From a virus, in the IMG/VR virus record IMGVR_UViG_3300035181_001974: a stretch of 64,000 nucleotides of DNA; one strand, given 5' to 3'. The notes beneath the pieces are model-generated. The model worked only from the letters and a program-made list of their open reading frames with translations. It made no database searches and had not been told where the DNA came from. Position 1 is the first letter of the stretch. The number at the start of each line of letters is the position of its first letter. The position numbers and the translations under genes are program-made. Positions 4,650 through 42,290 of the stretch are shown in pieces.

Positions 4650-5825
4650 ATGAACATGCAGATCGTCTATGCAGCCGAAGAGGCGCCGGCTTCGTTTGAG
4701 AAGTCCATCTTTTTGGCGGGGCCTTCTCCCCGTTCTGATGCGCATTTGAATTGGCGACCGGATGCCCTTAAGCTCCTCGAAGAGATGGGCTATGATGGCG
4801 TCGTCTTCGTGCCGCTGCCCCGCGATGGTAAGTGGAACTGCGGCTTCGATCATCAGGTCGAATGGGAAAAGAAACACCTCGACATGAGCGACGTGGTCGT
4901 CTTCTGGGTTCCTCGCGACATGCAGGTGGCACCTGCCCTGACGACGAACGTCGAGTTCGGTATGTACTATGATGCCGGAAAGACGGTCCTGGGTTACCCG
5001 CCCGAGGCCTATAACATGCGCTACCTGGCGCACCGTGCTCGTCTCGAGGGCGTCCCAGTAGAGAGCACGCTCCAGAACACGCTGCTGCAGGCACTCGAGA
5101 GGACGAAGCACAAGGCACTTCGATTCGGCGGGGAACGTTCAGTTCCACTGCATATCTGGCACCAGCCTGCGTTCCGCTCGTGGCACGCGGCCCAGAGGGC
5201 TGTTGGTAATCGTTTAGACGGCGCACAGTTGCTGTGGTCGTTCCGCATTGGGCCCAACAAAGCAGTGACCTTCTGCTATGCCTTGAAGGTTGATGTCTAT
5301 GTGGCGGCCGAGAAACGCAACAAGACCAACGAGTTCATCTTCTCGCGGCCGGACGTCTTCGTCGTGGTGGCGTATCACAGGCCGGACTCCGATGTCCTTG
5401 GGACGAGGGTCGCCCTTGTCAAGGAGTTCCGCAGCTCTGTTCGCAACAATGCAGGCTTCGTATATGAGGCTCCTGGTGGTAGTTCGCTGAAGTTGAGTCA
5501 GGATGCCCGCGTGGTGGCGGCCCACGAGTTGGAAGAAGAGATGGGCATCAATATTGATCCCACGCGGCTACGTTACGTGGGCTCGCGGCAGATGTGTGCT
5601 GCCCTGTCGACCCATCATGGCGTGGTCTACGCTGTTGAGTTGACAGCACTTGAAATGAATCGCCTGGAGGACGAACACAGTTCCGGCGTCACTCACGGGA
5701 TCGCCAACGATACTGAGTTGACTTACGTGGAGGTGTACGACCTCGATGACCTCGTCGCCGGCAAAGTCTTTATCGATTGGTCGATGCTCGGCATCATCTT
5801 GGCCGCCACCAGTGGCTCGGGCTGA
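4650..5825 (+). CDS. fusion protein with an N-terminal nucleoside 2-deoxyribosyltransferase/Rcl-like domain and a C-terminal Nudix-like domain
   Basis: IFLAGPSP...VVFVPLP...DVVVFWVPRD...EFGMYYDAGK is an NDT/DNPH1-like fold motif set; AHELEEEMGI is a Nudix-box-like motif. Confidence 0.5.
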   Translation: MNMQIVYAAEEAPASFEKSIFLAGPSPRSDAHLNWRPDALKLLEEMGYDGVVFVPLPRDGKWNCGFDHQVEWEKKHLDMSDVVVFWVPRDMQVAPALTTNVEFGMYYDAGKTVLGYPPEAYNMRYLAHRARLEGVPVESTLQNTLLQALERTKHKALRFGGERSVPLHIWHQPAFRSWHAAQRAVGNRLDGAQLLWSFRIGPNKAVTFCYALKVDVYVAAEKRNKTNEFIFSRPDVFVVVAYHRPDSDVLGTRVALVKEFRSSVRNNAGFVYEAPGGSSLKLSQDARVVAAHELEEEMGINIDPTRLRYVGSRQMCAALSTHHGVVYAVELTALEMNRLEDEHSSGVTHGIANDTELTYVEVYDLDDLVAGKVFIDWSMLGIILAATSGSG

Positions 5826-5829
5826 TTCC

Positions 5830-5980
5830 TGTGGCCCAAACTCGGCCCCCGCGTGACCCACGTGAGTGCCTGCACGGCCCAAGAAGGGGAAACCACCTCC
5901 TCTTTTTGGGTCATTCTCGTGATCCGTGGGCTCATTTGGGCCACAGCGCAATCTTTGACCCTTGATAGGTAGACTGAGAC
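5830..5980 (+). repeat. intergenic repeat element copy A (core GACCCACGTGAGTGC)
   Basis: Shares its core and flanking GGGCC/CCCATGAG units with copies at 38.8, 46.4, 47.7 and 53.8 kb. Confidence 0.55.
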
Positions 5981-6087
5981 CATGGCACAAGAACGGATTT
6001 TCGATAAGGTGGCCGACATTATCGAAGATCACTACGACGCCGGTCTACGAGGGACTTGAGCTATTGCTGTGAAATTCACCTGTCAGA

Positions 6088-9427: not shown

Positions 9428-9757
9428 ATGAGGCTGCTCGAGGAATACGTTAGATCCGTGTTGGTTGAACTGCGTGTGGATCGCAATTTTGTCAAACGAC
9501 TTCGACGTGGAAGCGGACCGTCGCTGTCGTCGAAGGCCCGCCTCGTCGCCGATGCCTGGATTGCGGACTACGAGCGTGGCGGGCGACTGTTGCCAGGAAA
9601 GACAAAGAACGACATCAGGTCGTTCGCGGTTGCACAGTATTCCGCGCTCGTCTTCAAGACGGGCGACGATTCAAGGGCCCGCGCTGAGCTCAACCGGCTC
9701 ATCGACAGCAGGTTCTCTGCGTTTACAGGTGGCCTTGCCGGAAGGGACAAGAAATGA
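9428..9757 (+). CDS. hypothetical protein (weak leader-like N-terminus MRLLEEYVRSVLVEL)
   Basis: ORF; ATGA overlap with the downstream lipoprotein gene. Confidence 0.4.
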   Translation: MRLLEEYVRSVLVELRVDRNFVKRLRRGSGPSLSSKARLVADAWIADYERGGRLLPGKTKNDIRSFAVAQYSALVFKTGDDSRARAELNRLIDSRFSAFTGGLAGRDKK

Positions 9758-10122
9758 CGAAAAAGTTGAGTGCTGCGGCCATGGTCCTCCTGGCCGCGAT
9801 TTTTGTGGGGTGTCCCAAGAGCCTCGGCGTAACCTCGCAGCCGCCAGTTGTGACCGACCAGGACCAGTGCGTGCCGGCGTGTGCCAAGCTCAAGGAGTTG
9901 CACTGTGCTGACGGCGAGCCGATCGACATGAAGAAATCGTGTGTCATCCAGGCTGAATGCGGCCCGGGCCAGACGTGTTCTGGGGGCACGTGCCACGCCT
10001 CATGCGAGCAGTTTTGTCGCGATACAGAGGACCAAGGTGTCTGGCTGGATCCCATCTGCGTTTCTCAGATCACCAGCTGCGACCAGGTTGACAGTTGTCC
10101 AACCCCACAACCGAAGAAATGA
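9754..10122 (+). CDS. Cys-rich secreted lipoprotein
   Basis: Signal peptide plus lipobox (AAIFVGC); more than 9 Cys in the mature part. Confidence 0.55.
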   Translation: MTKKLSAAAMVLLAAIFVGCPKSLGVTSQPPVVTDQDQCVPACAKLKELHCADGEPIDMKKSCVIQAECGPGQTCSGGTCHASCEQFCRDTEDQGVWLDPICVSQITSCDQVDSCPTPQPKK

Positions 10123-10994
10123 GCAAGTTTCTGCCATTGAAGGTCGGTCCTTGGCGAGCTGGCAACGTCCGCCTGTCCAAGACGTGGACGTTTGAGCAGT
10201 CACAGGATCACTGGTCGAGGCTACGCAAGGTGCTCGCCAAGTGGAATGCCACGCAAGAACCCTGGCGTCAGTCGTCGGGGGCCTATGACATGGCTGACAC
10301 TGAGCGCTTTATCTTCGTGGAGATGACTCCCGAAGAGCGTGGTCGGTTCATCACCGACCTCGACGCAGCAGGCTTTGACGTTCAGGACGATCAATCCGCA
10401 GAGTCACCCGATATGGGTCCCTACAGGACGCCGGCCCGAGAGTCTCACGAGCTGCTAAAGGTCTTCGTCAACGAAGTGTTGACGGGCTTCAAGTCGTTGA
10501 ACACTGCAGGCCGCGACGGCGTCGCCGGCAACTTGCGCTACGGGGACGCCACGTTGGCTCAGAAGAATCGTAACATCCTGGACGATGAGGCTGACGTGGA
10601 CGCCAAGGTCCAACAGGACGCCGCCGCACTGCCTCGTGCGGCTTGTGTGTTGGTGATGAATCGCGCTGGCAAGATCCTCGCAGTCTCCGGGAAGAATGAC
10701 CCAAGCGACTTTGGCCTGCCCGGTGGCAAGATCGACCCAGGCGAGGACGCAGCGACTGCAGCGGCCCGTGAGCTGGAAGAAGAGACGGGCCTTCACATCA
10801 CTGACTTGAATCAAGTCTTTGAAGACGTCGACGAGGGAGGTTACCACGTTATCACGTTTACCGGCCGCGTTGAGGGCCAAATCGACACCGAAGAATCGGG
10901 CGTTGTCCGCTGGGTCGACCCTAGCGTCCTGCTCGCGGGTTCGTTTGGCGGTTACAACAAGCGATTGCTGCGTGCTGTTGGTCGAATGAAGTAA
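10119..10994 (+). CDS. Nudix hydrolase with N-terminal domain of unknown function
   Basis: GLPGGKIDPGEDAATAAARELEEETGL is a canonical Nudix box. Confidence 0.7.
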   Translation: MSKFLPLKVGPWRAGNVRLSKTWTFEQSQDHWSRLRKVLAKWNATQEPWRQSSGAYDMADTERFIFVEMTPEERGRFITDLDAAGFDVQDDQSAESPDMGPYRTPARESHELLKVFVNEVLTGFKSLNTAGRDGVAGNLRYGDATLAQKNRNILDDEADVDAKVQQDAAALPRAACVLVMNRAGKILAVSGKNDPSDFGLPGGKIDPGEDAATAAARELEEETGLHITDLNQVFEDVDEGGYHVITFTGRVEGQIDTEESGVVRWVDPSVLLAGSFGGYNKRLLRAVGRMK

Positions 10995-11842: not shown

Positions 11843-12757
11843 ATGAGATACCGCAACGACAACATGCTGCTGCACATCGCTTTGGGCGATGCCTACGCTG
11901 CCGGGTTCGAGTACATCAAGTTCCATCCCGATGAGCCGGAGTTCAAGGAAATCCGCGCCTTCCAGGGCTACATGCAGCACCCGGGTCACCAAGGCCTGCG
12001 TCCTGGCATGTACACTGACGATACGCAGATGTCGATCGCGGTGGCTGAGACCCTGATCAACAAGGGAACGTCCGCTAGCTACAACGACTGGGTCGCCGCC
12101 TGGTTCGACACCTTCAAGCGTGATCCACGCGATGGGTATTCCCGTGGGTTCCAGGCGATCCTAGAGTCGGTGAAGTCAGCTGACGAGCTCCGCGCCACAT
12201 TGCGGCCCAATTCGACGAAGAATGGCGCGGCCATGCGTGCCGTGCCCTTGGGCGTCATCAAAGACGTTGACAAGTTGCTGACAGTCGCAGCGTTTCAGGC
12301 GACCACCACGCACGCCTCTTACGAGGGCGTGCAGTCGGCGATGGCAATCGCCCTGATGTCGCATTACGCGCTCTACGATCATCGCAAACTTTCTGCAATG
12401 CAGGGGTGGTTGGAACCCCGCTTACCCTTGTTCGAAAAATTCCGTGTGCCTTGGGAGGGCCCGGTTCAAGGCAATGTCAAGCACTCGCCGTACGACGTGG
12501 GCATCAACACGGCCTGGGCCGTCAACACCTTGTTGATTCACAAGCGCTCTCTCCGTGAGATCATGGACCAGGTCATCGAGTGGGGCGGCGACACGGACTC
12601 TGTCGCGGCCATCGCATGGGGAATCGCGGGCGCCCGTCACCAGGACGAAGTGCTGCCTGAGTTCTTGGTCCACGATCTCGAGGCGAAAGGCAACTTGAAG
12701 TATGGTGTGCCCTTCCTCCAGGACTTGGGCAAGCGCTTGATGGAGTTGAAGATCTGA
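11843..12757 (+). CDS. ADP-ribosylglycohydrolase (ARH/DraG family)
   Basis: HIALGDAYAAGFEY, TDDTQMSIA and GGDTDSVAAIAWGIAGA motifs; start at internal Met with upstream purine-rich site. Confidence 0.75.
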   Translation: MRYRNDNMLLHIALGDAYAAGFEYIKFHPDEPEFKEIRAFQGYMQHPGHQGLRPGMYTDDTQMSIAVAETLINKGTSASYNDWVAAWFDTFKRDPRDGYSRGFQAILESVKSADELRATLRPNSTKNGAAMRAVPLGVIKDVDKLLTVAAFQATTTHASYEGVQSAMAIALMSHYALYDHRKLSAMQGWLEPRLPLFEKFRVPWEGPVQGNVKHSPYDVGINTAWAVNTLLIHKRSLREIMDQVIEWGGDTDSVAAIAWGIAGARHQDEVLPEFLVHDLEAKGNLKYGVPFLQDLGKRLMELKI

Positions 12758-15429: not shown

Positions 15430-17037
15430 ATGTTTCAAGACGTCGACACTCCCGCAGTCACCAAGGTTGTTTTCAAGGACGAGGCCCGCCGTAAGCTTTA
15501 CAACGGTCTCGAGATCGCCGCGGAGGCCGTCAGCTGCACGCTGGGCCCGAAGGGCAAAACGGTACTGATCCAGCGCAAGGGCGAGGCGCCGGTTGTCACC
15601 AAGGATGGCGTCACGGTCTCCAAGTCTGTCAAGCTGAAGGACCCCATCGCGAGGATGGGCGCAGAGCTGATCCGGGAGGCCGCATCGCAGACCAACGAGG
15701 TCGCCGGTGACGGCACGACAACAGCAACGGTGTTGACCCACGCCATGGTCAGGGAAGGCCTGAAACTGCTGGAGGCTGGCTTCTCGGCGAAGGAACTATG
15801 TGAAGGCATCGAGCTGGCACGGGCCACTGTCGATGAGGAGCTGATCCGCGCTGCGAAGCAGCTAACGACGGCGGAAGAGATCGCCCAGGTTGGCACTATC
15901 TCCGCGAACGGTGACGAGAAAATCGGGCAACTGATCGCTCAGGCCATGAGCAAGGTCGGTAAGGACGGTATTATCACTGTTGAGGACGCCAAAGGCATGA
16001 CGACCAGCCTCGACGTCGTCGAAGGTATGCAGTTCGACCGCGGCTACCTATCGCCGTACTTCGTCACCAATCCCGACAGGATGTTGGCGACCTACGAGGG
16101 CGCCCGAGTCCTGGTCACTGACAAGAAGATCAGCGTGTTGAAGGACCTAGTGCCAATCCTAGAGAAGGTTCTCCAGACGCGGACGCCACTGCTGATCATC
16201 GCAGAAGACGTGGAAGGTGAGGCGCTGCACGGCCTGGTTCTCAACCGTGTCCAGGGCAACCTGCCGATTGTGGCCGTTAAGGCACCGGGCTATGGGCAGC
16301 ACCGCGACGAGCTACTGCAGGACATCGCCACCCTGACGGGCGCAAAGCTCGTCTCTGCATCGCAGGGATTGAAGCTCGAGACACTGACGTTGGCTGACCT
16401 CGGCACCATCAAGCGTGTCACGGTCGACGCCAAGTCCACGACGCTGGTCGGCACCGGTACCACGAAGCCCGAGGTCGACGCTCACGTGGCCAACCTGCGA
16501 TCGCAGGTGGAAGACGTCACCAAGACGCAGGATGAGGTCACCAAGCTGAAGATGCGAATCGCCAAGTTGGCGAGCGGCGTCGCCATCATCCGCGTCGGTG
16601 GCGCGACGGAAGTCGAGATGGTGGAACGCAAGTACCGCATTGAAGACGCTCTCAATGCCACGAAGGCTGCCGCAGAAGAGGGCATCGTTCCCGGCGGCGG
16701 CATGGCACTGGCGGCTGCGAGCCAGCAGATTCCAGTCTCCACGTTCGGCGCCGGTGCCAAGGTGGTGCAGGCTGCATGTGTTGCGCCCCTGCGGCGCATC
16801 GTCACCAACGCGGGCGTCTCTCCCGACGTGGTCATCAATGAGCTGCACAAGTTGCACCTCAATGACGTCACCCTGGGCTACAACGCAGCTAAGGAGACCT
16901 ACGAGGACCTAATCGCCGCTGGCGTCGTGGATCCCGTCAAGGTGACTCGCACCGCCCTGAAGAACGCCGTCTCCGTCGCGGTGACGTTCCTGTCGCTCGA
17001 TGCGGTTGTGGTCGAGGAAGAGGAGAAGAAGGAATGA
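15430..17037 (+). CDS. groL: chaperonin GroEL (Hsp60)
   Basis: AGDGTTTATVL ATP-binding signature, full 535-aa length, GGM-like C-terminus replaced by EEEEKKE. Confidence 0.9.
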   Translation: MFQDVDTPAVTKVVFKDEARRKLYNGLEIAAEAVSCTLGPKGKTVLIQRKGEAPVVTKDGVTVSKSVKLKDPIARMGAELIREAASQTNEVAGDGTTTATVLTHAMVREGLKLLEAGFSAKELCEGIELARATVDEELIRAAKQLTTAEEIAQVGTISANGDEKIGQLIAQAMSKVGKDGIITVEDAKGMTTSLDVVEGMQFDRGYLSPYFVTNPDRMLATYEGARVLVTDKKISVLKDLVPILEKVLQTRTPLLIIAEDVEGEALHGLVLNRVQGNLPIVAVKAPGYGQHRDELLQDIATLTGAKLVSASQGLKLETLTLADLGTIKRVTVDAKSTTLVGTGTTKPEVDAHVANLRSQVEDVTKTQDEVTKLKMRIAKLASGVAIIRVGGATEVEMVERKYRIEDALNATKAAAEEGIVPGGGMALAAASQQIPVSTFGAGAKVVQAACVAPLRRIVTNAGVSPDVVINELHKLHLNDVTLGYNAAKETYEDLIAAGVVDPVKVTRTALKNAVSVAVTFLSLDAVVVEEEEKKE

Positions 17038-17438: not shown

Positions 17439-17666
17439 GTGGGTAGCGGCCTGCAATCGGGCGAGCTAGTGGTGCGTAGGATACGCTGGGGCGTTGACGC
17501 TCAACAGTTCGGTCTGGTTATCGGTCAAATCAGGGAAGGCGAGTGGCTTGTGATGTGGCACGAGGATGATCGCGTCGGTTTCAAGGTCCACCTTGCCGAT
17601 GCGCTCCTCGTCGTCAATGATCACAACGCTAAGCAGGTGGAGGGTCGATGGCACCTCGCCACCTGA
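17439..17666 (+). CDS. small PGD-x-V family protein
   Basis: SGELVV...FGLVIGQIREGEWLVMWHE. Confidence 0.4.
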   Translation: MGSGLQSGELVVRRIRWGVDAQQFGLVIGQIREGEWLVMWHEDDRVGFKVHLADALLVVNDHNAKQVEGRWHLAT

Positions 17667-17878
17667 TCGGCGAATTGGTCATCTGTGATCCGTTCGCGGG
17701 GCGCCCCAAGTTCGGTCTGGTCATCTGCGCCACCAAGGCGAACCGAGACCCACTGGCAGCGGGATCAGCACGGTCTGACCGCTACCCGTGGGTTTACTAC
17801 GTCTTGACGTGCAGCGGCATTAGTGGACCACTTTTTTCATCCGAGCTCAGTCATGTCTCAGACGCTCCTGCCTGGTGA
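17648..17878 (+). CDS. small PGD-x-V family protein
   Basis: LIGELVICDP...FGLVICATK. Confidence 0.35.
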   Translation: MAPRHLIGELVICDPFAGRPKFGLVICATKANRDPLAAGSARSDRYPWVYYVLTCSGISGPLFSSELSHVSDAPAW

Positions 17879-18068
17879 TTTGGTCGCGACCAAAGGCCAA
17901 GTCTTGATCGAACAGCTGGGAGGCTACTGCGAGATGTGGCACGAGGGGATCGGCCTGCTCATCGCTCACCACTATCGCTGCAATGAACTCGGCGAACAAC
18001 TATCATTGGTCCTGTTAGAAGGGTCACTCTGGTGGATCGCTGCCTTGGATTTGGAGTCCATAGAGTGA
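17823..18068 (+). CDS. small PGD-x-V family protein
   Basis: LLPGDLVATKGQVLIE...EMWHEGIGLLIAHH. Confidence 0.4.
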   Translation: MDHFFHPSSVMSQTLLPGDLVATKGQVLIEQLGGYCEMWHEGIGLLIAHHYRCNELGEQLSLVLLEGSLWWIAALDLESIE

Positions 18069-18088
18069 CTCAGGATTATTCGAGACAA

Positions 18089-18358
18089 TCACCTGGTGGA
18101 GTCATTGGCCCTGGTCAGTTGGTTCAAGTGAACCCGCAGCAGCTTGTTGACCCTTGAGAACATCACGGTGACTGTGTTATCGTGAGTGTTAGACGCAGAA
18201 ACGTCGCTCCCGACCGAGACGACCAGGCCAGCGTCGCCGGGGTGCAGTTCATACCAGTTGATGAGGCCCAGCTCGGTCGGCGCCGCTGAGGGCGCCAAGT
18301 ACGAGGACCAGAACGTGAATGTGACGAGGTCACCTGGACGAATTGGAGGGGTGGACAC
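18089..18358 (-). CDS. small PGD-x-V family protein
   Basis: IRPGDLVTFTF...HPGDAGLVVSV (two motif copies). Confidence 0.4.
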   Translation of the reverse strand: MSTPPIRPGDLVTFTFWSSYLAPSAAPTELGLINWYELHPGDAGLVVSVGSDVSASNTHDNTVTVMFSRVNKLLRVHLNQLTRANDSTR

Positions 18359-18375
18359 ACTTTAAGTAGCCAACT

Positions 18376-18645: not shown

Positions 18646-18836
18646 GTTCTATCGAATGTGTTGGCTTCGACGCTGTTTCGCAGCAGGCCCGAGGGTCCAA
18701 TCGTGGTGAAGTTGAGCTGAATCCAGCCGATGGGCAGCGTTTGCACCTCGCAAGTGATCACCATCACCACCTCGCCGGAAGGCCTCGCCAATAATGTGCC
18801 CGGGGTCAGGCGCTGCAGCCACTCGTCAGGCATCAC
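18624..18836 (-). CDS. small PGD-x-V family protein
   Basis: LTPGTLLARPSGEVVMVITCEV. Confidence 0.35.
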   Translation of the reverse strand: MMPDEWLQRLTPGTLLARPSGEVVMVITCEVQTLPIGWIQLNFTTIGPSGLLRNSVEANTFDRTWKTLTS

Positions 18837-22149: not shown

Positions 22150-24495
22150 TCACTTCTTTTTCGTGGATTTATTGACGAGCTTCTTGGCGGCCACAGGTTT
22201 CTTCTTGGCGATCGGTTTCTTAGCCACTGACTTATTGGTCGCCACCTTCTTCTTTTTCTTCAACGTCTTGTGGCCAACACCGCCCTTTGGCAGGCCCGGC
22301 GTCGACTTGGTGATGGAGTTGATTGACCAGAAGACCTTTGAGACATTGATCTCGCCCAAGGCAATGACCTCGTCTTCAGTCTCGTACTCATCGAAGCCCT
22401 GAACGTTGTAGAGAGCGCCCGGTCCCATGCAGAACTTGTTTGGATTCTTCTTGACAGAGGCGACCATGATGATGGCGTAAGAACCGTAACCTCCATCGTT
22501 TGAAAACTTGACAGCACCTTGCGACGTTGATGACCAGCTAGTGGCCCCGCGACCTGACAACGGCGTGAACGTGAATGATGCGGCCTTGTTTCCCTTCGGT
22601 GGCAGATCATCTCCGGGCTTTAGCTTCAAGGCCTTGCGCAGATAATCTGCAGGAACGTTCATGCCACGGAGGACGTACGCCTGCTTAGGCTCGCGGAAGA
22701 CGCTAGCGTATTGACCCTTTTGCAGGAAGGACTGGATCAGCTTAGCGTGAGCGGGTGAGATCGGATCGTTGTTGACGAAGTGGGCATACAGGTCATTGTA
22801 CAACTTCTGCTCTTCCTTCGAGTTTGCCTCATACGGAACCTTTCCCTTGCGCTGGTCGGCAAAGGCCCACTGCTGTAGGGGCGCTGAGGGCTCTGCTTCA
22901 GGAGGCGCCTTCTTCAACAGCTCGGCGTTCTTCGCCTTCGTCTTTTTGATCCAACTGCTGGCGATCTTCTTGGCGCGCTGCAGCAGTTTTGGCCTGTCAC
23001 CTTCTGAGGTCAGTGCCCATGCTTTCAGGGCGCGTTTGAGATCATTGGGCTGTTTGGTGAAGTCATCACCTTTGGAGCGCATTGTCGAAATGATGCTGCC
23101 CCAAAAGTAGGTCTCGTTCGATGACTTCTCGGGTCCAAGCGTTTCAAACGTATCCACGATGTCATCATCGGGCATCGATCTGATGGTGTCCGACAACTTG
23201 ATCAGGCCATCGATCAACGCAATGAATTGAGGATCGTCCTTTGCCTTGAGCTGTTCCTTGACCTGAGCGAGATCGTCTCTCAGGTTCTTGATGTATTCAT
23301 GCAACTCAGAGGAGTTGATGATCTGCGAGTAGGCCATGACAGCTCGCAAGCGTGTCATTGACTTAGGTCCGACCTCGGGATCGATCTTGGTGATCTTGTC
23401 GATTTTGTCAGTAAAGTCGTTGGGAAAGTTCCAAATGCTCTTGCCGAAGTAGTCCCTTGAAACTTTGGCGCCGCCCAACTTGTGAGTGAAGCGAGCGTAA
23501 TCCGCGAGCGTCTGCAGGTCCTGCAGCTGTTCCTCGGTCAGTTCACCCTTCAGGGTCTGCACGTACCTGGCGGCTTTGGGAGTCTCGCGCTCGAGCATTG
23601 CCTTGATCTGCGTGATGACCTTGCGCGCTAGCCTGCTCGAGCGTTCTGCAATCCTTGCGTACTCTTCGAGAAACTCGTTTTCATCCTCGTTAAGATACGC
23701 ATTGAACGTGTTGATGGAATTGTAGTCCGACATACCAATGTGGTAGTCGTATGAGATTACGGTCTCATAGTAGGGCTTTAGGTCGCTCGGAACCTTCTCC
23801 TTCAGAAGGTCGAGCAATTCGCGGCCTGCGTCGACCACGTCCCAGGCGGCCTCGGCCTTCTTGGCCTCAAACCCAGCGATGATCTTGTCGAGCTTGTCGA
23901 TCTCGGACTCAGCGTCCTCGCTGTCCAGTTGTTCCAACCAGCGCGTGAAGTAACCTTTGGACGACTGCAACCTGAAGTGCTTTTCAGTCGGGTTGCTTTC
24001 AATCACTGCGCCCAGGGCGTAATTCAAGAAGTCACGAGCCGTGGCGTGGTTCTTGACGTTAAGCTGCAGGTCCTGCAGGTCTTCCCTGAGGTCACGCAGG
24101 ATCGGAATTGGGATGTGTGACAGTCGCTTCAGGATCGAGTTGAACGCAATGTCCTGAATGCTCTTGTCAGCGTGGCTTGGGACCGCCTCAAAGTTTGTGA
24201 TCTTTGAAAAGAGATCATCGAGCTGATCGTCTGACAGACTGCCCAAAGCAGCCTTCAGCTTAGTGAAGAGAACTTCACTGTAGTAACCGCTGTTGCTCAG
24301 CCCGCCAGAATCCACCCAGGCATCGAATGCGTCATGTAGCTTGGCCTTGAGGCCTGGGGGCGCATCGTCTAGCGAGTCGATGGCCTTGACGATAGCTGTC
24401 GCCTTGATCTGCTTGGCAAGCTGCTTAAAGCGATCAACGAAACCGTTGAAACTGATCTCCAACAGCAGTGCGACTTCTTGTACCTTCGCCCTCAT
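22150..24495 (-). CDS. large Arg-specific ADP-ribosyltransferase (Alt-like, R-S-E class) with ~600-aa helical N-terminal region and Lys-rich tail
   Basis: C-terminal YVLRGM (Arg), SWSSTSQG (STS) and EYETEDEV (E-x-E) motifs; paralog of 60872..62377. Confidence 0.65.
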   Translation of the reverse strand: MRAKVQEVALLLEISFNGFVDRFKQLAKQIKATAIVKAIDSLDDAPPGLKAKLHDAFDAWVDSGGLSNSGYYSEVLFTKLKAALGSLSDDQLDDLFSKITNFEAVPSHADKSIQDIAFNSILKRLSHIPIPILRDLREDLQDLQLNVKNHATARDFLNYALGAVIESNPTEKHFRLQSSKGYFTRWLEQLDSEDAESEIDKLDKIIAGFEAKKAEAAWDVVDAGRELLDLLKEKVPSDLKPYYETVISYDYHIGMSDYNSINTFNAYLNEDENEFLEEYARIAERSSRLARKVITQIKAMLERETPKAARYVQTLKGELTEEQLQDLQTLADYARFTHKLGGAKVSRDYFGKSIWNFPNDFTDKIDKITKIDPEVGPKSMTRLRAVMAYSQIINSSELHEYIKNLRDDLAQVKEQLKAKDDPQFIALIDGLIKLSDTIRSMPDDDIVDTFETLGPEKSSNETYFWGSIISTMRSKGDDFTKQPNDLKRALKAWALTSEGDRPKLLQRAKKIASSWIKKTKAKNAELLKKAPPEAEPSAPLQQWAFADQRKGKVPYEANSKEEQKLYNDLYAHFVNNDPISPAHAKLIQSFLQKGQYASVFREPKQAYVLRGMNVPADYLRKALKLKPGDDLPPKGNKAASFTFTPLSGRGATSWSSTSQGAVKFSNDGGYGSYAIIMVASVKKNPNKFCMGPGALYNVQGFDEYETEDEVIALGEINVSKVFWSINSITKSTPGLPKGGVGHKTLKKKKKVATNKSVAKKPIAKKKPVAAKKLVNKSTKKK

Positions 24496-24609: not shown

Positions 24610-25051
24610 TCATTTGCCGTAATCGTGGACGCCTTTGACGGTGACGATGCGGTCGGACTCATCTCCCAACACGAGAGCGTGAAGGTCATGACCGAACACT
24701 GCGCCGCCATCGATGCCCGCATGGACGCACACCACGTTATGGTCTGATACCTTGATGAGCAGAGGCAGTGAACGAAACCACTCGTAATGCTCTGACTGCA
24801 GCTGCGCTCGAGTCTTCACGTGACTGTCGGGCATGCTGGGCACGCGACCGATGCATTGAACGTGGTCCTCGTGATTTCCCAGCACGCCGGCGGGTGAATC
24901 CTGGACCTGCTCACGCTCGCGGACGAGATCGCAGCACTTGGCATTGTCGGGCCTGCGATTGACGTAGTCGCCCGGGAAGATTACTTGATCTGAGGTCGAT
25001 GGCCTCTCTCTAACATCCGTGAAGGTCGCCGATGACGATCGTCCTACTCAT
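24610..25051 (-). pseudogene. calcineurin-like metallophosphoesterase with a frameshift
   Basis: MSRTIVIGDLHG (motif I) ends at a TAG; GDYVNRRPDN ... GNHEDH ... VCVHAG motifs continue in the adjacent frame. Confidence 0.5.
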
Positions 25052-26751: not shown

Positions 26752-26754
26752 GGT

Positions 26755-28163: not shown

Positions 28164-28169
28164 CTCTCC

Positions 28170-28670
28170 TCATTCGCCCTGCAACCTCCTCAACTCTTGG
28201 TTGATGAAGAGCTGGAATGATGCGAACTGCGTGGCCATCGCCATCAAGTCGATCTTCTTGACCTGTCGCTTGATCTTGCTGTAGGAGATCAACTTGCGCC
28301 CGGCCTTGGCGCCCGTCGGATAGGCCATGAAGGAAAAGACCGGCATGACCTCAATACAACCCCTGAGCCGCGTCGGGTTGATGAGATAGCCTTTGGCATC
28401 GACCCAACCATCGCGGCGCTTCTCTTTTCGGGATTTCCGCGACCATCGCGGAGAATAGTCGGTGTACTGACCCCAGCGAGCATCGCTGCGAGGTGGGCTG
28501 TCCTTCAAGATGCGATAGATGTTACCTCCTGAGTTCAGGCCATGGCCCTCGACAGTCACAAGGTCGCCTTCAGCCAGACCGAAGTCGCTGAGTTTAACTG
28601 CCATAGACTCGCGCCAGTTGGGTAGATCAGTGATCAGTGTACCGATTTCGGTCATGGTATCATCATACAC
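28170..28670 (-). CDS. 166-aa protein, paralog of 26263..26751
   Basis: DFGLAEGDLVTV...GGNIYRIL and GCIEVMPVFSFMAYPTGAKAGRK shared with its paralog. Confidence 0.5.
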   Translation of the reverse strand: MYDDTMTEIGTLITDLPNWRESMAVKLSDFGLAEGDLVTVEGHGLNSGGNIYRILKDSPPRSDARWGQYTDYSPRWSRKSRKEKRRDGWVDAKGYLINPTRLRGCIEVMPVFSFMAYPTGAKAGRKLISYSKIKRQVKKIDLMAMATQFASFQLFINQELRRLQGE

Positions 28671-39493: not shown

Positions 39494-40189
39494 ATGAACG
39501 CCATGCAACAGCCCCTCATCATCGACCGCGCTCACAAGGCCATCGACCTCATCCTTGCCAGCGAGATCGCGCAGAAGTACCTGTCCCCGCACACCATGCA
39601 GTCGCTCCGCGAGCAGCGCAAGTCGGGCTCCGCGGGCAACGTGTCCGTGATGTTCCGCGATACCACGGAGCAGATCGACACGAGCTGTGACCTCTACGTG
39701 CGGTTCGATACGATCGACTGGACCCGCGACCTGAAGCCCCGTGAGGACGGGTCGATCTGGCGGAACTACAAGTTCCGCGTCGAGGTCAACTGGCCCAGCC
39801 ACGGAGACACGCGGCCCGCCCTCGCCAAGGCGCGCCTGGAGTTCTACACCAGGGTCGTCGAGCTCACGGAGGCGATCAACGCGGAAATCGGCGACGGGAT
39901 CGCGGTCTGCATCCGCACCGCGGAGGAGCAGGCGGCGTTCATGGCCGAGCAGGAACGCAAGGCCGAGGAAGCCCGCATCGAGCGTGTTCTCCACGAGGCC
40001 GCCGACATGGTCCGCAAGGGTATGCGCGTGGGTCAGGATCGCAACATCCCCTCCTCGCTGCTGCCGGGCATCAAGACGGGCGTCTACCCCGTCTCGCGGG
40101 ACGATTACAACGGCAAGGTCGAGCGCAAGTACACCATCACCGTCGACGAGCGGCGGCCGAACACCTCGCACCTCCACCGCGTCTCCTGA
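39494..40189 (+). CDS. hypothetical protein
   Basis: 231-aa ORF with the junction element upstream. Confidence 0.5.
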   Translation: MNAMQQPLIIDRAHKAIDLILASEIAQKYLSPHTMQSLREQRKSGSAGNVSVMFRDTTEQIDTSCDLYVRFDTIDWTRDLKPREDGSIWRNYKFRVEVNWPSHGDTRPALAKARLEFYTRVVELTEAINAEIGDGIAVCIRTAEEQAAFMAEQERKAEEARIERVLHEAADMVRKGMRVGQDRNIPSSLLPGIKTGVYPVSRDDYNGKVERKYTITVDERRPNTSHLHRVS

Positions 40190-40233
40190 GTGTAAAGCCG
40201 GGACTCGCTAAGTTAGGATAGAGACACCACCAC

Positions 40234-41394
40234 ATGGCAACTCCCAACTCCATGGCGATCCATACCCTTGTGGACGTCTCTCCCAAGCTCCCCGCCTTCA
40301 TCTCCGTCCTGCTGCGCGGTCCTCACGGGATCGGCAAGTCGCAGCTGGCTCGCCAGGTCGCCCGCATCATCGCTCACGCGGAGCAGATCAAGGACTTCGA
40401 GTTCATCGACCAGCGCCTGTCGCAGAAGACGGAAGGCGATCTCATCGGCCTCCCCAGCACCGACGGCGAGGTCACGCGCTTCAATCCGCCCGACTGGTAC
40501 AAGCGTGCCTGCGTCCGGCCCTGCTTCCTCCTGCTGGACGAGCTGAACCGCGCGACCCAGGAGGTCATGCAGGCAGCGTTCCAGATCGTGCTCGACCGTG
40601 AGCTCAACGGCTGGAAGCTGCACCCCCAGACCCGCGTCTGGTCGGCCATCAACTCCTCACAGGAGTACACGGTCAACGAGATGGATCCGGCGCTCCTCGA
40701 TCGCTTCTGGGTCGTCGACCTCAAGCCGGACGTCAAGGACTGGCTCGCCTGGGCAAAGGGCGAGGGTGACATTCACCCGACCCTGATCGACTTCCACGCT
40801 GCCAACGGCGAGAAGTGGCTCGACCCGCCCAAGGGCGCCGAGGCCGGCAGCGTTCATTCCTCGCGGCGTAGCTGGGAGCGTATGGACCGCTCGCACAAGC
40901 ACGCCGGGGTCGCGGATGATCCCAGCAACCCGCTGTTCTACCACATAGCCGTGGGCTTCGTCGGTGTCGAGGCGGCGATCGCCTTCCACGATTTCGCGGT
41001 CACCGTCGACACCCGCGTCTCGGGCAAAGACGTGATCGACGGGTACGACAAGGTCCAGCACAAGGTCAAGAAGTTCACGGCCGACCGCATCAACGATCTG
41101 GTCGATAAGGTCTCGGACCACGTGACCAAGAACCTCAACAGTCTGACCGAGAAGCAAGGCACCAACCTGAAGCAGTTTCTCAAGGACCTGCCGGGTGAGC
41201 AGCGCGTCAACTGCTGGTCCAAGCTGACCCTGCCTGGCACCGACAAAATGGAGCTGGCACGCAGCATCCACAAGTACTGCGCGGCCGCAGTCCTGGACGT
41301 CTTCGGCGTCCCGATGGGCGAGGCTGGCATCGGCATCGTTCCTGACATCCCCGGCATCTTCAAGTCGCCCGGGGCGGGAGGGAAGAAGAAGTGA
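40234..41394 (+). CDS. MoxR-like AAA+ ATPase (AAA_5 type)
   Basis: LLRGPHGIGKSQLARQVA Walker A; LLLDELNRATQEVMQAAFQIVLDREL Walker B / sensor region. Confidence 0.65.
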   Translation: MATPNSMAIHTLVDVSPKLPAFISVLLRGPHGIGKSQLARQVARIIAHAEQIKDFEFIDQRLSQKTEGDLIGLPSTDGEVTRFNPPDWYKRACVRPCFLLLDELNRATQEVMQAAFQIVLDRELNGWKLHPQTRVWSAINSSQEYTVNEMDPALLDRFWVVDLKPDVKDWLAWAKGEGDIHPTLIDFHAANGEKWLDPPKGAEAGSVHSSRRSWERMDRSHKHAGVADDPSNPLFYHIAVGFVGVEAAIAFHDFAVTVDTRVSGKDVIDGYDKVQHKVKKFTADRINDLVDKVSDHVTKNLNSLTEKQGTNLKQFLKDLPGEQRVNCWSKLTLPGTDKMELARSIHKYCAAAVLDVFGVPMGEAGIGIVPDIPGIFKSPGAGGKKK

Positions 41395-41407
41395 CCTAGT
41401 TACCTGC

Positions 41408-41995
41408 ATGGCGGCCTTCGATCTCGAGCTGTGGAATGCACGTGCCTGGGATCGCTTTCAAAAAGCGATCCAAGCGGGCAAGAACGCAGACCGGGCCACC
41501 AAGCGGTGGACGGAAGATCGCCACTACGTTTCGGCACTCCGCGTGGTGGTGGAGTGGTGTGAGGCCCGGTCGCTGACAGTGACCTTCTGCAAGCGCAGCG
41601 GTGGTATCTACTACACGGCTGACAAGGAGATCAAGGTCAGCGGCCGGGCTTCGCCGAAGCACCAGCTGCACATCCTCCTGCATGAGTGTGGGCACCACCT
41701 GATCGGCAGCAAGGACAAATATGAGCGCTACGGGATGGGCTACGGCAACCAGGATCCCGACGTTAAGCGTTCATTTCATCATCGAATTGACATCGTTGAT
41801 GAAGAGTTCGAGGCCTGGCACCGTGGTTGGAAGCTAGCGCGGCGCCTGGGTGCGTTGACCAAGAAAGACAAGGCAGCCTTCGACAGGACGCGGGTCGCCA
41901 TGCTGCGGACATACCTGCTCTGGGCGACGAAGGCGCCTGGATACGAGAAATACGATGACCCAGCAGAAGCAGATGACGATGCGACTGTGGCTTGA
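41408..41995 (+). CDS. putative zinc metallopeptidase (HExxH; ImmA/IrrE-like)
   Basis: LLHECGHHLIG motif. Confidence 0.4.
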   Translation: MAAFDLELWNARAWDRFQKAIQAGKNADRATKRWTEDRHYVSALRVVVEWCEARSLTVTFCKRSGGIYYTADKEIKVSGRASPKHQLHILLHECGHHLIGSKDKYERYGMGYGNQDPDVKRSFHHRIDIVDEEFEAWHRGWKLARRLGALTKKDKAAFDRTRVAMLRTYLLWATKAPGYEKYDDPAEADDDATVA

Positions 41996-42290
41996 TGATG
42001 AGCGGCCTGCGCCCTCAGGTTGGATCCACGCCAAGACAGCGGCGGGCGCGCAGCGCCTGTTGGAGACGGGCCGCGTGGTGGAGCTAAGCCTCGACCACGA
42101 TCTGGGACCTCTGAGCGCAGGCACCGGCTACGATGTTGTCTGCTGGTTGGAAGAGCAGTGCGCCCGTCAGGACTTCATCCCGCCTGAGATCATCAGCGTT
42201 CATTCGGCCAATCCCGTCGGTGCACAACGGATGCACCAGGCGATAGAATCGATTCGACGAGTCTGGCAGCAGAAGGTCGGAGGCAGCTGA
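41955..42290 (+). CDS. CPR-like (cyclic-phosphate processing receiver) domain protein
   Basis: LWLDDERPAPSGW ... LSLDHDLG ... ISVHSANPVG is the pattern typical of this phage-common small domain. Confidence 0.45.
   Translation: MTQQKQMTMRLWLDDERPAPSGWIHAKTAAGAQRLLETGRVVELSLDHDLGPLSAGTGYDVVCWLEEQCARQDFIPPEIISVHSANPVGAQRMHQAIESIRRVWQQKVGGS

What the first reader, a model, noticed from the sequence alone, without database searches (positions are those of the whole stretch)
4650..42290. Distributed NAD+/ADP-ribose-processing accessory set
In addition to the ARTs and ARH, the window encodes: two Nudix hydrolases (one fused to a nucleoside-deoxyribosyltransferase/Rcl-like N-glycosidase fold); a 2H phosphoesterase with two H-x-T-x motifs (33923..34351); a CPR-like domain protein (WLDDERP ... 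SLDHD, 41955..42290); and a frameshifted metallophosphoesterase directly next to the large ART. Each of these families can act on ADP-ribose, ADP-ribose-1'',2''-cyclic phosphate or NAD-derived signal nucleotides. Together they look like a toolkit for consuming or neutralising NAD-derived or cyclic-nucleotide immune signals, or for clearing ART by-products.
Basis: inference. Interest (0 to 1): 0.6.

Follow-up and report, generated by a model that had tools for sequence, protein, structure and literature searches.

The report
Scattered ADP-ribose enzymes, huge phage
This piece of a huge bacteriophage genome really does carry the listed Nudix, ADP-ribosylhydrolase, 2H and cREC genes, but they are scattered, unlinked genes of a repertoire already described for jumbo phages, and one of them is a dead gene.

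Summary
The family calls hold. 4650-5825 is a nucleoside-deoxyribosyltransferase-like domain fused to an ADP-ribose-pyrophosphatase-type Nudix. 10095-10994 ends in a canonical Nudix. 11843-12757 is a DraG/ARH3-like ADP-ribosylhydrolase. 33923-34351 is a miniature 2H phosphoesterase: its two H-x-T histidines are invariant in the family and the only convincing fold matches are 2H enzymes. 41955-42290 is a strong cREC domain.

Three corrections:
- The metallophosphoesterase (24610-25051) is a decayed NinI/ApaH-type phosphatase, so it has no known ADP-ribose link and is probably inactive.
- The "ARTs" rest only on an R/S-x-S/E-x-E motif shared by two paralogous C-termini. Every profile search failed.
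- The genes lie on both strands over 38 kb among unrelated genes, with no conserved synteny.

The idea is not new. Iyer et al. (2021, 2022) described this NAD+/ADP-ribose network in jumbo phages and cite Bacillus phage G gp334, the ortholog of the fusion protein. The fusion is also a conserved cellular gene in Patescibacteria, which points to nucleotide salvage. The relatives and contexts of 2H and cREC point at least as much to RNA-end repair. A single signal-destroying toolkit remains unproven.

Verdict: observation largely right, interpretation partly supported, new member of a known kind, modest interest.

The parts
4650..5825 (+). 391-aa fusion protein. The N-terminal domain is DrHyd/nucleoside-2-deoxyribosyltransferase-like, with invariant E102 in TNVEFG. 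The C-terminal domain is an ADP-ribose/NDP-sugar pyrophosphatase-type Nudix, with an R-to-H variant box ...AAHELEEEMGI. It is the ortholog of Bacillus phage G gp334 (AEO93593.1).
   Evidence: Pfam PF15891 5.8e-14. 1779 homologs, many carrying PF00293. Invariant E102, E293 and E297; E296 at 90% or more. AF2 model pLDDT 87.6. Foldseek matches NUDT5, NudF, YffH and NUDT14 at E 3e-10 to 1e-7, and 4mcj (putative NDT) for the N-domain. 38.6% identical to gp334 over its full length.
10095..10994 (+). 299-aa protein (291 aa by the public gene call). About 170 N-terminal residues have no recognised domain. The C-terminus is a canonical MutT-type Nudix domain (GLPGGKIDPGEDAATAAARELEEETGL). It lies 850 bp upstream of the ARH on the same strand.
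   Evidence: PF00293 6.2e-19. phrog_1198 MutT/NUDIX 2.9e-25. PDB and NCBIfam hits are generic: MutT, Ap4A hydrolase, DIPP, RppH, NudE. The substrate cannot be inferred.
11843..12757 (+). 304-aa ADP-ribosylglycohydrolase (ARH/ARG) of the DraG/ARH3/Tri1 type, with metal-site motifs YTDDT and GGDTDS.
   Evidence: PF03747 1.3e-37. PDB ARH3 6e-11 and DraG 4e-9. NCBIfam DraG 1.2e-17 and Tri1 1.1e-12, both below equivalog cutoffs.
22150..24495 (-). 781-aa protein with a long helical N-terminal part and a C-terminal domain of about 200 aa that carries an R / S-x-S / E-x-E pattern (VLRGM, TSWSS, EDEV). The ART assignment is unverified.
   Evidence: 45% identical over 211 aa to the C-terminus of 60872-62377, with the triad conserved. 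No Pfam, PHROG, PDB or phage-database hit and no relatives in IMG/VR or JGI scans.
24610..25051 (-). Decayed calcineurin-like phosphoesterase gene of the NinI/lambda-phosphatase/ApaH type. MSRTIVIGDLHGC is followed by TAG. A frameshift or short deletion then precedes ...VIFPGDYVNRRPD...GNHEDH...VCVHAGI. The C-terminus is truncated.
   Evidence: Three-frame translation and DNA. Best NCBIfam match is ApaH, 3.2e-14 (52.9 bits against a cutoff of 176). tblastn hits are NinI-like Ser/Thr phosphatases. An independent assembly could not be obtained.
33923..34351 (-). 142-aa miniature 2H phosphoesterase with HVTV (61-64) and HMTV (131-134). It is co-directional with, and about 630 bp upstream of, the major-vault-protein homolog.
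41955..42290 (+). 111-aa stand-alone cREC (cyclic-phosphate-processing receiver) domain with WLDDERP and SLDHD. It is the fourth gene of a tight five-gene + strand run (39494-42697) that also holds a MoxR-like AAA_5 ATPase and an HExxH protein.
   Evidence: PF20274 7e-28, 97.6 bits against a cutoff of 27. phrog_1479 2.3e-25. 118 phage records carry a homolog. It lies next to a phosphoesterase and an RNA ligase in phage ESCO5 and next to a phosphoesterase in TunaTartare.
60872..62377 (+). 501-aa paralog of the ART-like protein (IYRGM, SSWST, EKEV).
   Evidence: BLASTP 2e-48 against the 781-aa protein, C-terminal 211 aa. No profile support.

Best explanation
The window is part of a huge (jumbo-class) phage genome. 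It is a dispersed repertoire of independently encoded accessory enzymes of the kind that accumulates in very large phages, and it falls into two loose functional groups.

(i) An ADP-ribosylation group. A DraG/ARH3-like hydrolase removes ADP-ribose from modified proteins; the activity is inferred from strong homology and intact metal-site motifs. An ADPRase-type Nudix, fused to a deoxyribosyltransferase-like N-glycosidase domain, can split ADP-ribose or a related NDP-sugar into NMP plus sugar-phosphate, and the N-domain then acts on a (deoxy)ribosyl-base bond. The fold and catalytic residues are shown; the substrate is inferred. Two paralogous large proteins may be Alt-like Arg-specific ADP-ribosyltransferases, but this rests on a motif only. 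The second, MutT-type Nudix lies just upstream of the ARH and may belong here or may be a decapping or nucleotide-sanitising enzyme.

(ii) A cyclic-phosphate group. The miniature 2H enzyme and the cREC domain are metal-independent phosphoesterases. Their most likely substrates are 2',3'-cyclic phosphate RNA ends, ADP-ribose-1'',2''-cyclic phosphate, or cyclic (oligo)nucleotides. This is a family-level inference and the specificity is unknown.

The NinI/ApaH-type phosphoesterase is a pseudogene and contributes nothing.
For: - Huge-phage origin. The only relatives in the phage collection are 330-735 kb phages. The window also carries GroEL, IF1, an L7/L12 domain and tRNAs.
- The family assignments are as given under parts.
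- Nudix2 and the ARH are 850 bp apart on the same strand.
- Co-occurrence without synteny. The 2H family and the ARH are both found in Salmonella phages PHA46, SE_PL, 7t3 and Munch, in Klebsiella phage fENko-Kae01 and in Bacillus phage G. The fusion and the ARH are both in phage G and LR745208. The fusion N-domain and the 2H are both in LR756511. In phage G the three genes are about 100 kb apart.
- Published surveys give the same picture, with base rates in jumbo phages of Nudix 45%, cRec up to 18% and ARG about 5% (PMC9503650). They cite phage G gp334 (AEO93593.1) as the exemplar of the fusion (PMC7824862 section 3.4.8; accession confirmed).
- In other phages cREC is linked to a phosphoesterase and an RNA ligase.
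Against: - No activity has been measured for any member of the fusion, small-2H or cREC families.
- ART status has no profile or structure support.
- The fusion is about 50-60% identical to proteins encoded in ordinary cellular neighbourhoods of Patescibacteria: MFS transporter, ABC-F and RecQ in one case, a phosphoribosyltransferase and pilus genes in another. Its primary role may therefore be nucleotide salvage with no ADP-ribose link.
- The ADPRase clade's downstream proline, as I recall that signature, is absent from this protein's sequence, and the Nudix-box Arg is His.
- No RNA ligase, kinase-phosphatase, KptA, sirtuin, Macro, NADAR or NAD-salvage gene was found among the window ORFs scanned. 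Neither group is complete within the window.
- Only 64 kb of a probably >300 kb genome was seen.
Confidence: 0.45

Rival explanations
1. The genes act together as an anti-immune toolkit that destroys NAD-derived or cyclic-nucleotide defence signals (gcADPR of Thoeris, cyclic oligonucleotides of CBASS, Pycsar or type III CRISPR) and clears ADP-ribose made by NADase effectors.
For: - The Nudix of the fusion has the ADPRase fold.
- Iyer et al. predict exactly this role for phage 2H, cRec and Nudix domains (PMC7824862 section 3.4.8; PMC9503650 section 3.7.4).
Against: - There is no clustering or synteny.
- One member is a pseudogene of an unrelated clade.
- The fusion is a cellular housekeeping-like gene in Patescibacteria.
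- In the papers found here, known anti-Thoeris factors are sponges (abstract of PMC13243611), with RyR-domain enzymes reported more recently (abstract of PMC13232231). None is a Nudix or 2H enzyme.
Confidence: 0.2
2. The genes are unrelated metabolic and housekeeping accessories with no ADP-ribose theme. The fusion is a nucleotide-salvage or sanitising enzyme (NDP-X or NTP to NMP, then base plus (deoxy)ribose-5-phosphate). Nudix2 is a MutT-like or RNA-decapping enzyme. 2H and cREC serve tRNA/RNA end-healing against host anticodon nucleases. Only the ARH concerns ADP-ribose.
For: - The fusion family is very large (at least 1779 clusters), 50-60% identical between huge phages and Patescibacteria, and sits in cellular neighbourhoods, one of them next to a PF00156 phosphoribosyltransferase.
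- Nudix2 matches MutT, RppH and Ap4A hydrolases as well as it matches NudE.
- The nearest models for the 2H family are the RNA-repair 2H-SAK, 2_5_RNA_ligase2 and LigT.
- cREC lies next to an RNA ligase and a phosphoesterase in ESCO5.
- The phage carries its own tRNAs.
Against: - The best structural matches of the fusion's Nudix are ADP-ribose pyrophosphatases, not MutT-type dNTPases.
- No RNA ligase or polynucleotide kinase was found in the window.
- An ARH occurs in only about 5% of jumbo phages (PMC9503650), which shows that ADP-ribosylation matters to this phage.
Confidence: 0.25
3. The grouping is an artefact of genome size: any 38-kb stretch of a huge phage would yield several families that 'can' touch nucleotides.
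For: Nudix domains are in 45% of jumbo phages and cRec in up to 18% (PMC9503650). The genes are spread over 38 kb on both strands, separated by lysozyme, peptidase, AAA ATPase, GroEL, IF1 and MVP genes. Synteny of the 2H gene is lost at 50% identity.
Against: At the published rates, ARG (about 5%), cRec (up to 18%) and Nudix (45%) would co-occur in well under 1% of jumbo phages if they were independent. The rare fusion is an addition to that. The same rare families recur together in at least three separate jumbo-phage lineages. Lineage and genome size were not controlled for.
Confidence: 0.1

Closest known systems
NAD+/ADP-ribose network of jumbo phages (Iyer, Anantharaman, Krishnan, Burroughs & Aravind, Viruses 2021, PMC7824862 section 3.4.8; Iyer, Burroughs, Anantharaman & Aravind, Viruses 2022, PMC9503650)
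   Same: It uses the same families (ART, ARG/ARH, Nudix, 2H, cRec, DrHyd/ARC). It makes the same proposal that they degrade ADPr-derived or cyclic-phosphate molecules or serve NAD+-linked RNA repair. It makes the same observation that the genes are mostly stand-alone and correlate with genome size.
   Different: This window has no Macro, NADAR, SLOG, sirtuin, KptA or NAD-salvage gene. cREC and Nudix are separate genes here rather than fused. The predictions in those papers are computational and untested, as are those here.
Bacillus phage G gp334 (AEO93593.1)
   Same: It is a full-length ortholog of 4650-5825 (38.6% identity over 98% of the query) with the same two-domain architecture.
   Different: Iyer et al. 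file the N-domain as an ADP-ribosyl cyclase (ARC clade of DrHyd). Here Pfam places it in PF15891/PF05014 (NDT-like), and the best structural match is 4mcj, a putative deoxyribosyltransferase. No ARC model was hit. The broad presence of the family in Patescibacteria cells is not mentioned in the passages of those papers that I read.
ADP-ribose pyrophosphatases NudF (E. coli, K. pneumoniae), Mycobacterium tuberculosis ADPRase and human NUDT5; GDP-mannose hydrolase YffH; NUDT14
   Same: Residues of about 160-391 of the fusion have the same two-part fold, an N-terminal beta domain plus a Nudix domain, aligned over about 200-225 columns (Foldseek E 3e-10 to 1e-7). The Nudix-helix glutamates are conserved.
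   Different: Identity is only 13-18%. The Nudix-box Arg is replaced by His, and there is a one-residue insertion between the Gly and the first Glu position, which is Gln in this protein. The substrate is untested.
2H phosphoesterases: ThpR/LigT and D. radiodurans CPDase (RNA 2',3'-cyclic phosphodiesterases), phage Acb1 (anti-CBASS), plant Appr>p CPDase
   Different: It is much smaller than most of them, about 130 aa with three strands and one helix per lobe. There is no sequence-level link to any solved 2H protein, and Foldseek finds nothing. The nearest Pfam model is 2H-SAK, and this protein scores below its threshold.
T4 Alt / ModA / ModB ADP-ribosyltransferases
   Same: The 781-aa and 501-aa proteins have Alt-like proportions: a long N-terminal region and a C-terminal catalytic-size domain. 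They also carry an R...S-x-S...E-x-E-V-hydrophobic pattern like LYRS/STS/EMEV of Alt and WRG/SAS/EQEV of ModA (sequences).
   Different: No detectable homology. hhalign gives a probability of 0.3% with tiny profiles, and all profile and database searches were negative. Membership is therefore not established.
Lambda NinI / PrpA-type Ser/Thr phosphatases and ApaH (Ap4A hydrolase)
   Same: The motifs GDxHG, GDxxxR, GNHE and HAG appear in order. The best matches are ApaH and NinI-like phage phosphatases.
   Different: The reading frame is broken by a stop and a frameshift, and the C-terminal third is missing. These families are not known to process ADP-ribose derivatives (my knowledge).

Membership tests
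Nudix hydrolases (PF00293) | Nudix box G-x5-E-x7-R-E-U-x-E-E-x-G-U on a loop-helix-loop | tested here: met
   The box in 10095-10994 is exact, GLPGGKIDPGEDAATAAARELEEETGL, with PF00293 at 6.2e-19. 4650-5825 has a variant box (GGSSLKLSQDARVVAAHELEEEMGI, with H for R and Q for the first E). PF00293 is hit in many of its homologs, and E293 and E297 are invariant, with E296 at 90% or more.
ADP-ribose / NDP-sugar pyrophosphatase clade of Nudix (NudF, NUDT5, YffH, NUDT14) | N-terminal beta-sheet domain plus Nudix domain, with fold similarity to solved ADPRases | tested here: met
   AF2 model pLDDT 87.6. The 16 best Foldseek PDB matches are NUDT5, NudF-type ADPRase, YffH and NUDT14, at E 2.9e-10 to 2.4e-8 over 203-224 columns.
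ADP-ribose / NDP-sugar pyrophosphatase clade of Nudix | ADPR hydrolysis, and the specificity signature downstream of the box (a proline about 15-16 residues after the box, as I recall from Dunn et al. 1999) | tested here: inconclusive
   The sequence after the box is NIDPTRLRYVGSRQMCAALSTHH, with no proline at the expected position (read directly). The activity is not testable with these tools.
DrHyd / nucleoside 2-deoxyribosyltransferase-like (PF15891, PF05014) | Profile match above the curated cutoff, a Rossmannoid fold and a conserved catalytic Glu | tested here: met
   PF15891 scores 52.8 bits against a cutoff of 30. E102 in TNVEFG is invariant in 37 sequences. The N-domain matches 4mcj with TM 0.75 normalised to the target.
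ADP-ribosyl cyclase (ARC) clade, as gp334 is filed in PMC7824862 and PMC9503650 | Specific relationship to CD38/Aplysia cyclase-type enzymes, and use of NAD+ | tested here: inconclusive
   No ARC Pfam model was hit at E<=0.1, and no cyclase is among the 50 best PDB matches. No dedicated profile-profile comparison with ARC could be run.
2H phosphoesterase superfamily | Two H-x-T/S-x motifs, one per lobe of an internally duplicated alpha+beta fold | tested here: met
2H phosphoesterase superfamily | Pfam model match above the gathering score | tested here: not met
   This protein scores 19.1 bits on PF22547 against a cutoff of 27. Family support comes from 53 of 70 members at E<=0.01, best 2.5e-7.
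Acb1 anti-CBASS nucleases | Sequence or profile relationship to Acb1, and cleavage of cyclic oligonucleotides | tested here: not met
cREC / cRec (PF20274) | Profile match above the cutoff, conserved acidic pocket (DD...D), and no histidine-kinase partner | tested here: met
   97.6 bits against a cutoff of 27. WLDDERP and SLDHD are present. The neighbours are an AAA_5 ATPase and an HExxH protein, with no kinase.
ADP-ribosylglycohydrolase (PF03747) | Profile match, and the binuclear metal-site motifs | tested here: met
   130.5 bits against a cutoff of 26.2. YTDDT and GGDTDS align to ARH3. The equivalog cutoffs for DraG and Tri1 are not reached, so the target residue is not assigned.
R-S-E ADP-ribosyltransferases (Alt/ModA/ModB, C3-like) | Detectable homology or ART fold | tested here: not met
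   Nothing was found in Pfam, PHROGs, PDB sequences, phage tblastn, IMG/VR or JGI scans. hhalign against T4 ModA/ModB/Alt was uninformative.
R-S-E ADP-ribosyltransferases | Catalytic triad motifs in order: aromatic-R-G, S-x-S, E-x-E followed by a hydrophobic strand | tested here: inconclusive
   The motifs are present and conserved between the two paralogs: R610/S652/E707-E709 and R389/S426/E480-E482. A loose regex for the pattern also hits GroEL, the ARH and others, so it is weak evidence.
Calcineurin-like phosphoesterases (PF00149), NinI/ApaH type | Intact open reading frame carrying the motifs GDxHG, GDxxDR, GNHE, H and GH | tested here: not met
   The first four motifs are recognisable, but the frame is interrupted by TAG and a frameshift and ends early.
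Phage NAD+ reconstitution pathways (NARP1/2/3) | Presence of Adps+Namat, Nampt+Nmnat or NadR+PnuC | tested here: not met
   No such Pfam family was found among the window ORFs scanned. The rest of the genome was not seen.

The most novel reading that the evidence does not exclude
The deoxyribosyltransferase-like/ADPRase-like fusion (4650-5825) would be a self-contained two-step enzyme that destroys NAD+-derived molecules. It would open an N- or O-glycosidic ribosyl bond and then cleave the pyrophosphate, acting on substrates such as NAD+, ADPR or cADPR isomers. The family is large, uncharacterised and shared between huge phages and Patescibacteria. Huge phages would use it, together with the small 2H enzyme and cREC, to erase TIR/Thoeris-type or cyclic-phosphate signals. 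In addition, the two orphan R-S-E proteins would be a new, sequence-unrecognisable clade of packaged ADP-ribosyltransferases.
Probability: 0.12. Interest if true: 0.6.

Novelty: new member of a known kind. Interest (0 to 1): 0.3.

Why it matters
If the scattered genes did act together, this would be another example of a virus dismantling NAD-based bacterial immune signalling, which is an active field. As it stands, the window mainly confirms in one more uncultured huge phage a repertoire that comparative genomics has already catalogued.

The practical value lies in three large families that still lack any biochemistry:
- the NDT-like/ADPRase fusion, with at least 1779 clusters, also present in Patescibacteria;
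- the roughly 130-aa 2H family, with 565 representative clusters;
- the cREC domain.

Each is small, soluble-looking and easy to assay.

Tried and rejected
1. Near-identical DNA in the phage collection: none.
2. Exact look-up of window proteins for annotated context. The MVP homolog and the 162-aa ORF are not on record. The 2H and ART look-ups gave only short or truncated contigs. The fusion look-up gave L003, which showed a third Nudix just upstream of the window.
3. ART verification. I tried Pfam and PHROGs on the full-length proteins and on the isolated domains, PDB phmmer, tblastn against phages, the k-mer homolog search (self hit only), two IMG/VR scans, one JGI scan, and hhalign against T4 ModA/ModB/Alt. 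All were negative or uninformative.
5. 2H-MVP linkage. The synteny 2H, two small ORFs, MVP, 239/241-aa gene is kept in a relative whose 2H is 64% identical. It is lost in a 50%-identical relative, and the other distant relative sits on a contig too short to tell. I therefore did not use it as functional context.
6. ARH-Nudix adjacency in the closest annotated phage ARH (Sinorhizobium phage Phosso): not conserved.
7. Independent assembly of the phosphoesterase lesion. Exact-pattern scans of JGI and IMG/VR contigs found nothing, so the pseudogene call rests on one assembly.
8. Rfam scan for Y-RNA, vault-like or other ncRNAs near MVP and 2H: only tRNAs at the window end.
9. A kinase reading of 21270-22139, made by eye: no Pfam, PHROG, NCBIfam or PDB support.

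Full report
**What the window is.**
The 64-kb window has no near-identical DNA in 50,697 phage records. Its proteins find relatives almost only in very large phages. These include uncultured huge phages LR745208 (485 kb), LR756511 (595 kb), LR756500 (462 kb) and LR756501/3 (735 kb). They also include Bacillus phage G (497 kb), Agrobacterium phage Atu_ph07 (490 kb), Sinorhizobium phage Phosso (469 kb) and 337-386 kb jumbo phages of Salmonella, Klebsiella and Escherichia such as 121Q. The window also encodes a full-length GroEL, an IF1, an L7/L12 C-terminal domain protein, a GH25 lysozyme, a papain-like peptidase, AAA ATPases, HNH endonucleases and three tRNAs. It is therefore a piece of a huge phage genome. 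An identical 2H protein is recorded on a contig of 309 kb.

**Checking the observation, gene by gene.**

- *Fusion protein, 4650-5825(+), 391 aa.*
  - Pfam gives PF15891 (nucleoside 2-deoxyribosyltransferase-like) at 5.8e-14 for residues 18-118. It gives no Nudix hit for this protein itself.
  - The homolog search found 1779 proteins. The best 120 are 47-61% identical over the full length, and many carry a precomputed PF00293 hit.
  - In a 37-sequence alignment the catalytic-type Glu of the N-domain (E102 in TNVEFG) is invariant. So are the Nudix-helix glutamates E293 and E297, with E296 at 90% or more. The box Arg is His.
  - An AlphaFold model (pLDDT 87.6, pTM 0.78) matches ADP-ribose pyrophosphatases in its C-terminal ~220 residues: human NUDT5, E. 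coli and K. pneumoniae NudF, and M. tuberculosis ADPRase. It also matches the related NDP-sugar hydrolases YffH and NUDT14 (Foldseek E 3e-10 to 1e-7). The N-domain matches 4mcj, a putative deoxyribosyltransferase.
- *Second Nudix, 10095-10994(+).* It ends in a textbook Nudix domain (PF00293 6.2e-19). Its PDB and NCBIfam matches are spread over MutT, Ap4A hydrolase, DIPP, RppH and NudE, so no substrate can be assigned. The first ~170 residues match nothing.
- *ARH, 11843-12757(+).* This is a clear ADP-ribosylglycohydrolase (PF03747 1.3e-37) with the YTDDT and GGDTDS metal-site motifs. Its closest relatives are ARH3, DraG and Tri1.
- *2H protein, 33923-34351(-).*
  - It has HVTV and HMTV, but its own Pfam hit is sub-threshold (2H-SAK, E=0.0016).
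  - A full HMMER scan of 1.84 billion representatives found 565 family members of about 120-140 aa.
  - In 70 of them H61, R66, R111 and H131 are invariant. 53 hit 2H-SAK, 6 hit 2_5_RNA_ligase2 and 2 hit LigT_PEase.
  - The AlphaFold model (pLDDT 91) shows two beta-beta-alpha-beta lobes, each ending in the His-bearing strand.
  - Superfamily membership is supported. Subfamily, and hence substrate, is not resolved.
- *cREC, 41955-42290(+).* This is a strong hit (PF20274 7e-28) with WLDDERP and SLDHD.
- *Metallophosphoesterase, 24610-25051(-).*
  - It lies 114 bp from the start of the 781-aa gene. MSRTIVIGDLHGC is followed by TAG. The frame then shifts within about ten codons to ...VIFPGDYVNRRPD...GNHEDH...VCVHAGI, and the protein ends early.
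Its best matches are ApaH, far below the equivalog cutoff, and NinI-like Ser/Thr phosphatases of phages.
  - It is a decayed gene of a clade with no known ADP-ribose activity. I could not obtain a second assembly to exclude an assembly error.

**The ART premise.**
It is 45% identical over 211 residues. [quoted passage not shown]

That is all the evidence. Pfam, PHROGs, PDB sequences, the phage collection, the k-mer homolog search, two IMG/VR scans and a JGI scan found nothing. A loose regex for the triad also hits unrelated proteins. I treat "ART" as an untested lead.

**Do the genes form a set?**
- Physically they do not. They lie on both strands across 38 kb, separated by lysozyme, peptidase, AAA ATPase, GroEL, IF1, a major-vault-protein homolog and many small ORFs.
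- The only close pair is Nudix2 and the ARH, 850 bp apart on the same strand. That adjacency is absent in the closest annotated ARH-bearing phage.
- cREC sits in a tight five-gene run with a MoxR-like AAA_5 ATPase and an HExxH protein.
- The 2H gene is co-directional with the MVP gene. That order is kept in a relative whose 2H is 64% identical but not in a 50%-identical one.
- Phyletically there is co-occurrence. The 2H family and the ARH are both present in five related Salmonella and Klebsiella jumbo phages (337-360 kb) and in phage G. The fusion and the ARH are both in phage G and LR745208. The fusion N-domain and the 2H are both in LR756511.
- All of these are phages above 330 kb, and in phage G the three genes are about 100 kb apart. 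Genome size and shared ancestry were not controlled for.

**What is already known.**
Iyer et al. [quoted passage not shown] They name the cRec domain there. They also cite AEO93593.1 as a new ADP-ribosyl-cyclase-superfamily member fused to Nudix, and I confirmed that AEO93593.1 is phage G gp334, the ortholog of 4650-5825. Their 2022 survey (PMC9503650) gives base rates in jumbo phages of Nudix 45%, cRec up to 18% and ARG about 5%. It argues that phage ARGs act on macromolecular ADP-ribose, and that 2H/cRec/Nudix act either on ADPr>p and signals or in RNA repair.

**Evidence that pulls away from the immune-signal reading.**
- The fusion is not phage-specific. Homologs about 51-52% identical lie in ordinary cellular neighbourhoods of Patescibacteria. 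In a Falkowbacteria contig it sits among MFS transporter, ABC-F, LD-carboxypeptidase and RecQ genes. In a Paceibacterota contig it sits beside a PF00156 phosphoribosyltransferase and type IV pilus genes. Other homologs are in phage-like contexts. Such conservation fits a core nucleotide-salvage reaction at least as well as an anti-defence role.
- The nearest profile for the 2H family is the RNA-repair "Swiss-army-knife" 2H domain.
- In phage ESCO5 the cREC gene lies two genes from a phosphoesterase and an RNA ligase. In Streptomyces phage TunaTartare it follows a phosphoesterase.
- On the other side, no RNA ligase or kinase-phosphatase was found in this window.

**Most likely mechanism.**
I favour a modular reading (confidence about 0.45).
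- *ADP-ribosylation group.* It comprises the ARH (by homology), the ADPRase-type Nudix fusion (fold shown, substrate inferred), possibly Nudix2, and possibly two Alt-like transferases (motif only). ADP-ribose is put on and taken off proteins, and free ADPR is broken down to AMP and ribose-5-phosphate.
- *Cyclic-phosphate group.* It comprises the 2H enzyme and cREC. They open 2',3'- or 1'',2''-cyclic phosphates on RNA ends, Appr>p or cyclic nucleotides.
- The two groups need not be coupled, and the phosphoesterase remnant is inert.

The rivals are an integrated signal-destroying toolkit (0.2), unrelated salvage, decapping and RNA-repair functions with only the ARH touching ADP-ribose (0.25), and a pure genome-size artefact (0.1).

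**Verdict.**
It is a new member of a known kind, of modest interest (0.3). The value lies in pointing to three large, easily assayable, biochemically uncharacterised families.

Noticed in passing
window 30710-33289 (-): An 859-aa homolog of the eukaryotic major vault protein (MVP_shoulder 3.1e-28, Vault repeats, SPFH). In the phage collection it is found only in three uncultured huge-phage records of 462-735 kb, at about 40-42% identity. Phage MVPs have been reported once (bioRxiv 10.1101/2023.11.10.566534). Here it lies downstream of the 2H gene, and that order is conserved in one relative.
   Followed up: partly
L003 2765-3229 (about 2.1-2.6 kb upstream of window position 1, same phage): A third Nudix gene (154 aa, PF00293) lies just outside the window, so this phage has at least three Nudix proteins.
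   Followed up: no
window 21270-22139 (-), 20463-20741 (+), 25687-26001 (+); weaker in 9428-9757 (+), 36863-37282 (+): Several unrelated ORFs begin with the same amphipathic motif: [32 protein letters not shown] and MRIKLGELRHIIRTIL. This recalls the T4 capsid-targeting/prohead-protease signal (MKTYQEFIAE of the T4 internal proteins, from memory; MELITELFDE of Alt). These may be proteins packaged into the head and injected.
   Followed up: partly
window 21270-22139 (-): A 289-aa protein next to the ART-like gene looks kinase-like by eye (FFVKF, DIFLANYDVIG, RIDPGSSF). It has no Pfam, PHROG, NCBIfam or PDB support. With the ART-like gene and the phosphatase remnant it would make a cluster of protein-modifying enzymes.
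   Followed up: partly
window 17439-18836, 25991-28670, 34857-35249, 36035-36700, 42876-43975: There is a large paralogous family of small proteins (about 60-220 aa) sharing a P/V/E-G-D/E-L/M/I-V motif (for example PRPGDMV, LAEGDLV, LNVGDIV, LMPGDMI). They occur on both strands in several clusters, and their function is unknown.
   Followed up: no
window 26755-27114 (-) and 27577-27912 (-): Two small ORFs (119 and 111 aa) each match a short piece of the T4 Gp23 major-capsid profile: positions 4-48 at 4.5e-7 and positions 135-170 at 2.1e-8. They may be capsid-related fragments or proteins that share a prohead-processing motif.
   Followed up: no
window 15430-17037 (+), 20560-20892 (+), 55105-55635 (+), 63486-63979 (+): The phage encodes translation and chaperone genes: a full-length GroEL, an IF1 (eIF-1a 9.8e-22), a protein with the L7/L12 C-terminal domain (1.2e-10), and tRNA-Ile plus two tRNA-Tyr.
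   Followed up: no
window 55965-59237 (+) and 3147-3638 (+): A surface-polysaccharide-type block holds a polysaccharide pyruvyl transferase, a group-1 glycosyltransferase and an EamA transporter. A fatty-acid hydroxylase family protein lies elsewhere in the window.
   Followed up: no
window 39494-42697 (+): A tight five-gene run holds a 231-aa unknown, a MoxR-like AAA_5 ATPase (phrog_1297 4.8e-51), a 195-aa HExxH (LHECGHH) protein overlapping the cREC start by 41 nt, cREC, and a 135-aa lysine-rich protein. Whether the ATPase and the metalloprotein work with cREC is unknown.
   Followed up: partly
L005 6001-7161 and L015 317-1483: The NDT-like/Nudix fusion is a conserved cellular gene in Patescibacteria (Falkowbacteria, Paceibacterota), about 51-52% identical to the phage copy. 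This implies gene exchange between huge phages and candidate-phyla-radiation bacteria, or a shared source.
   Followed up: partly
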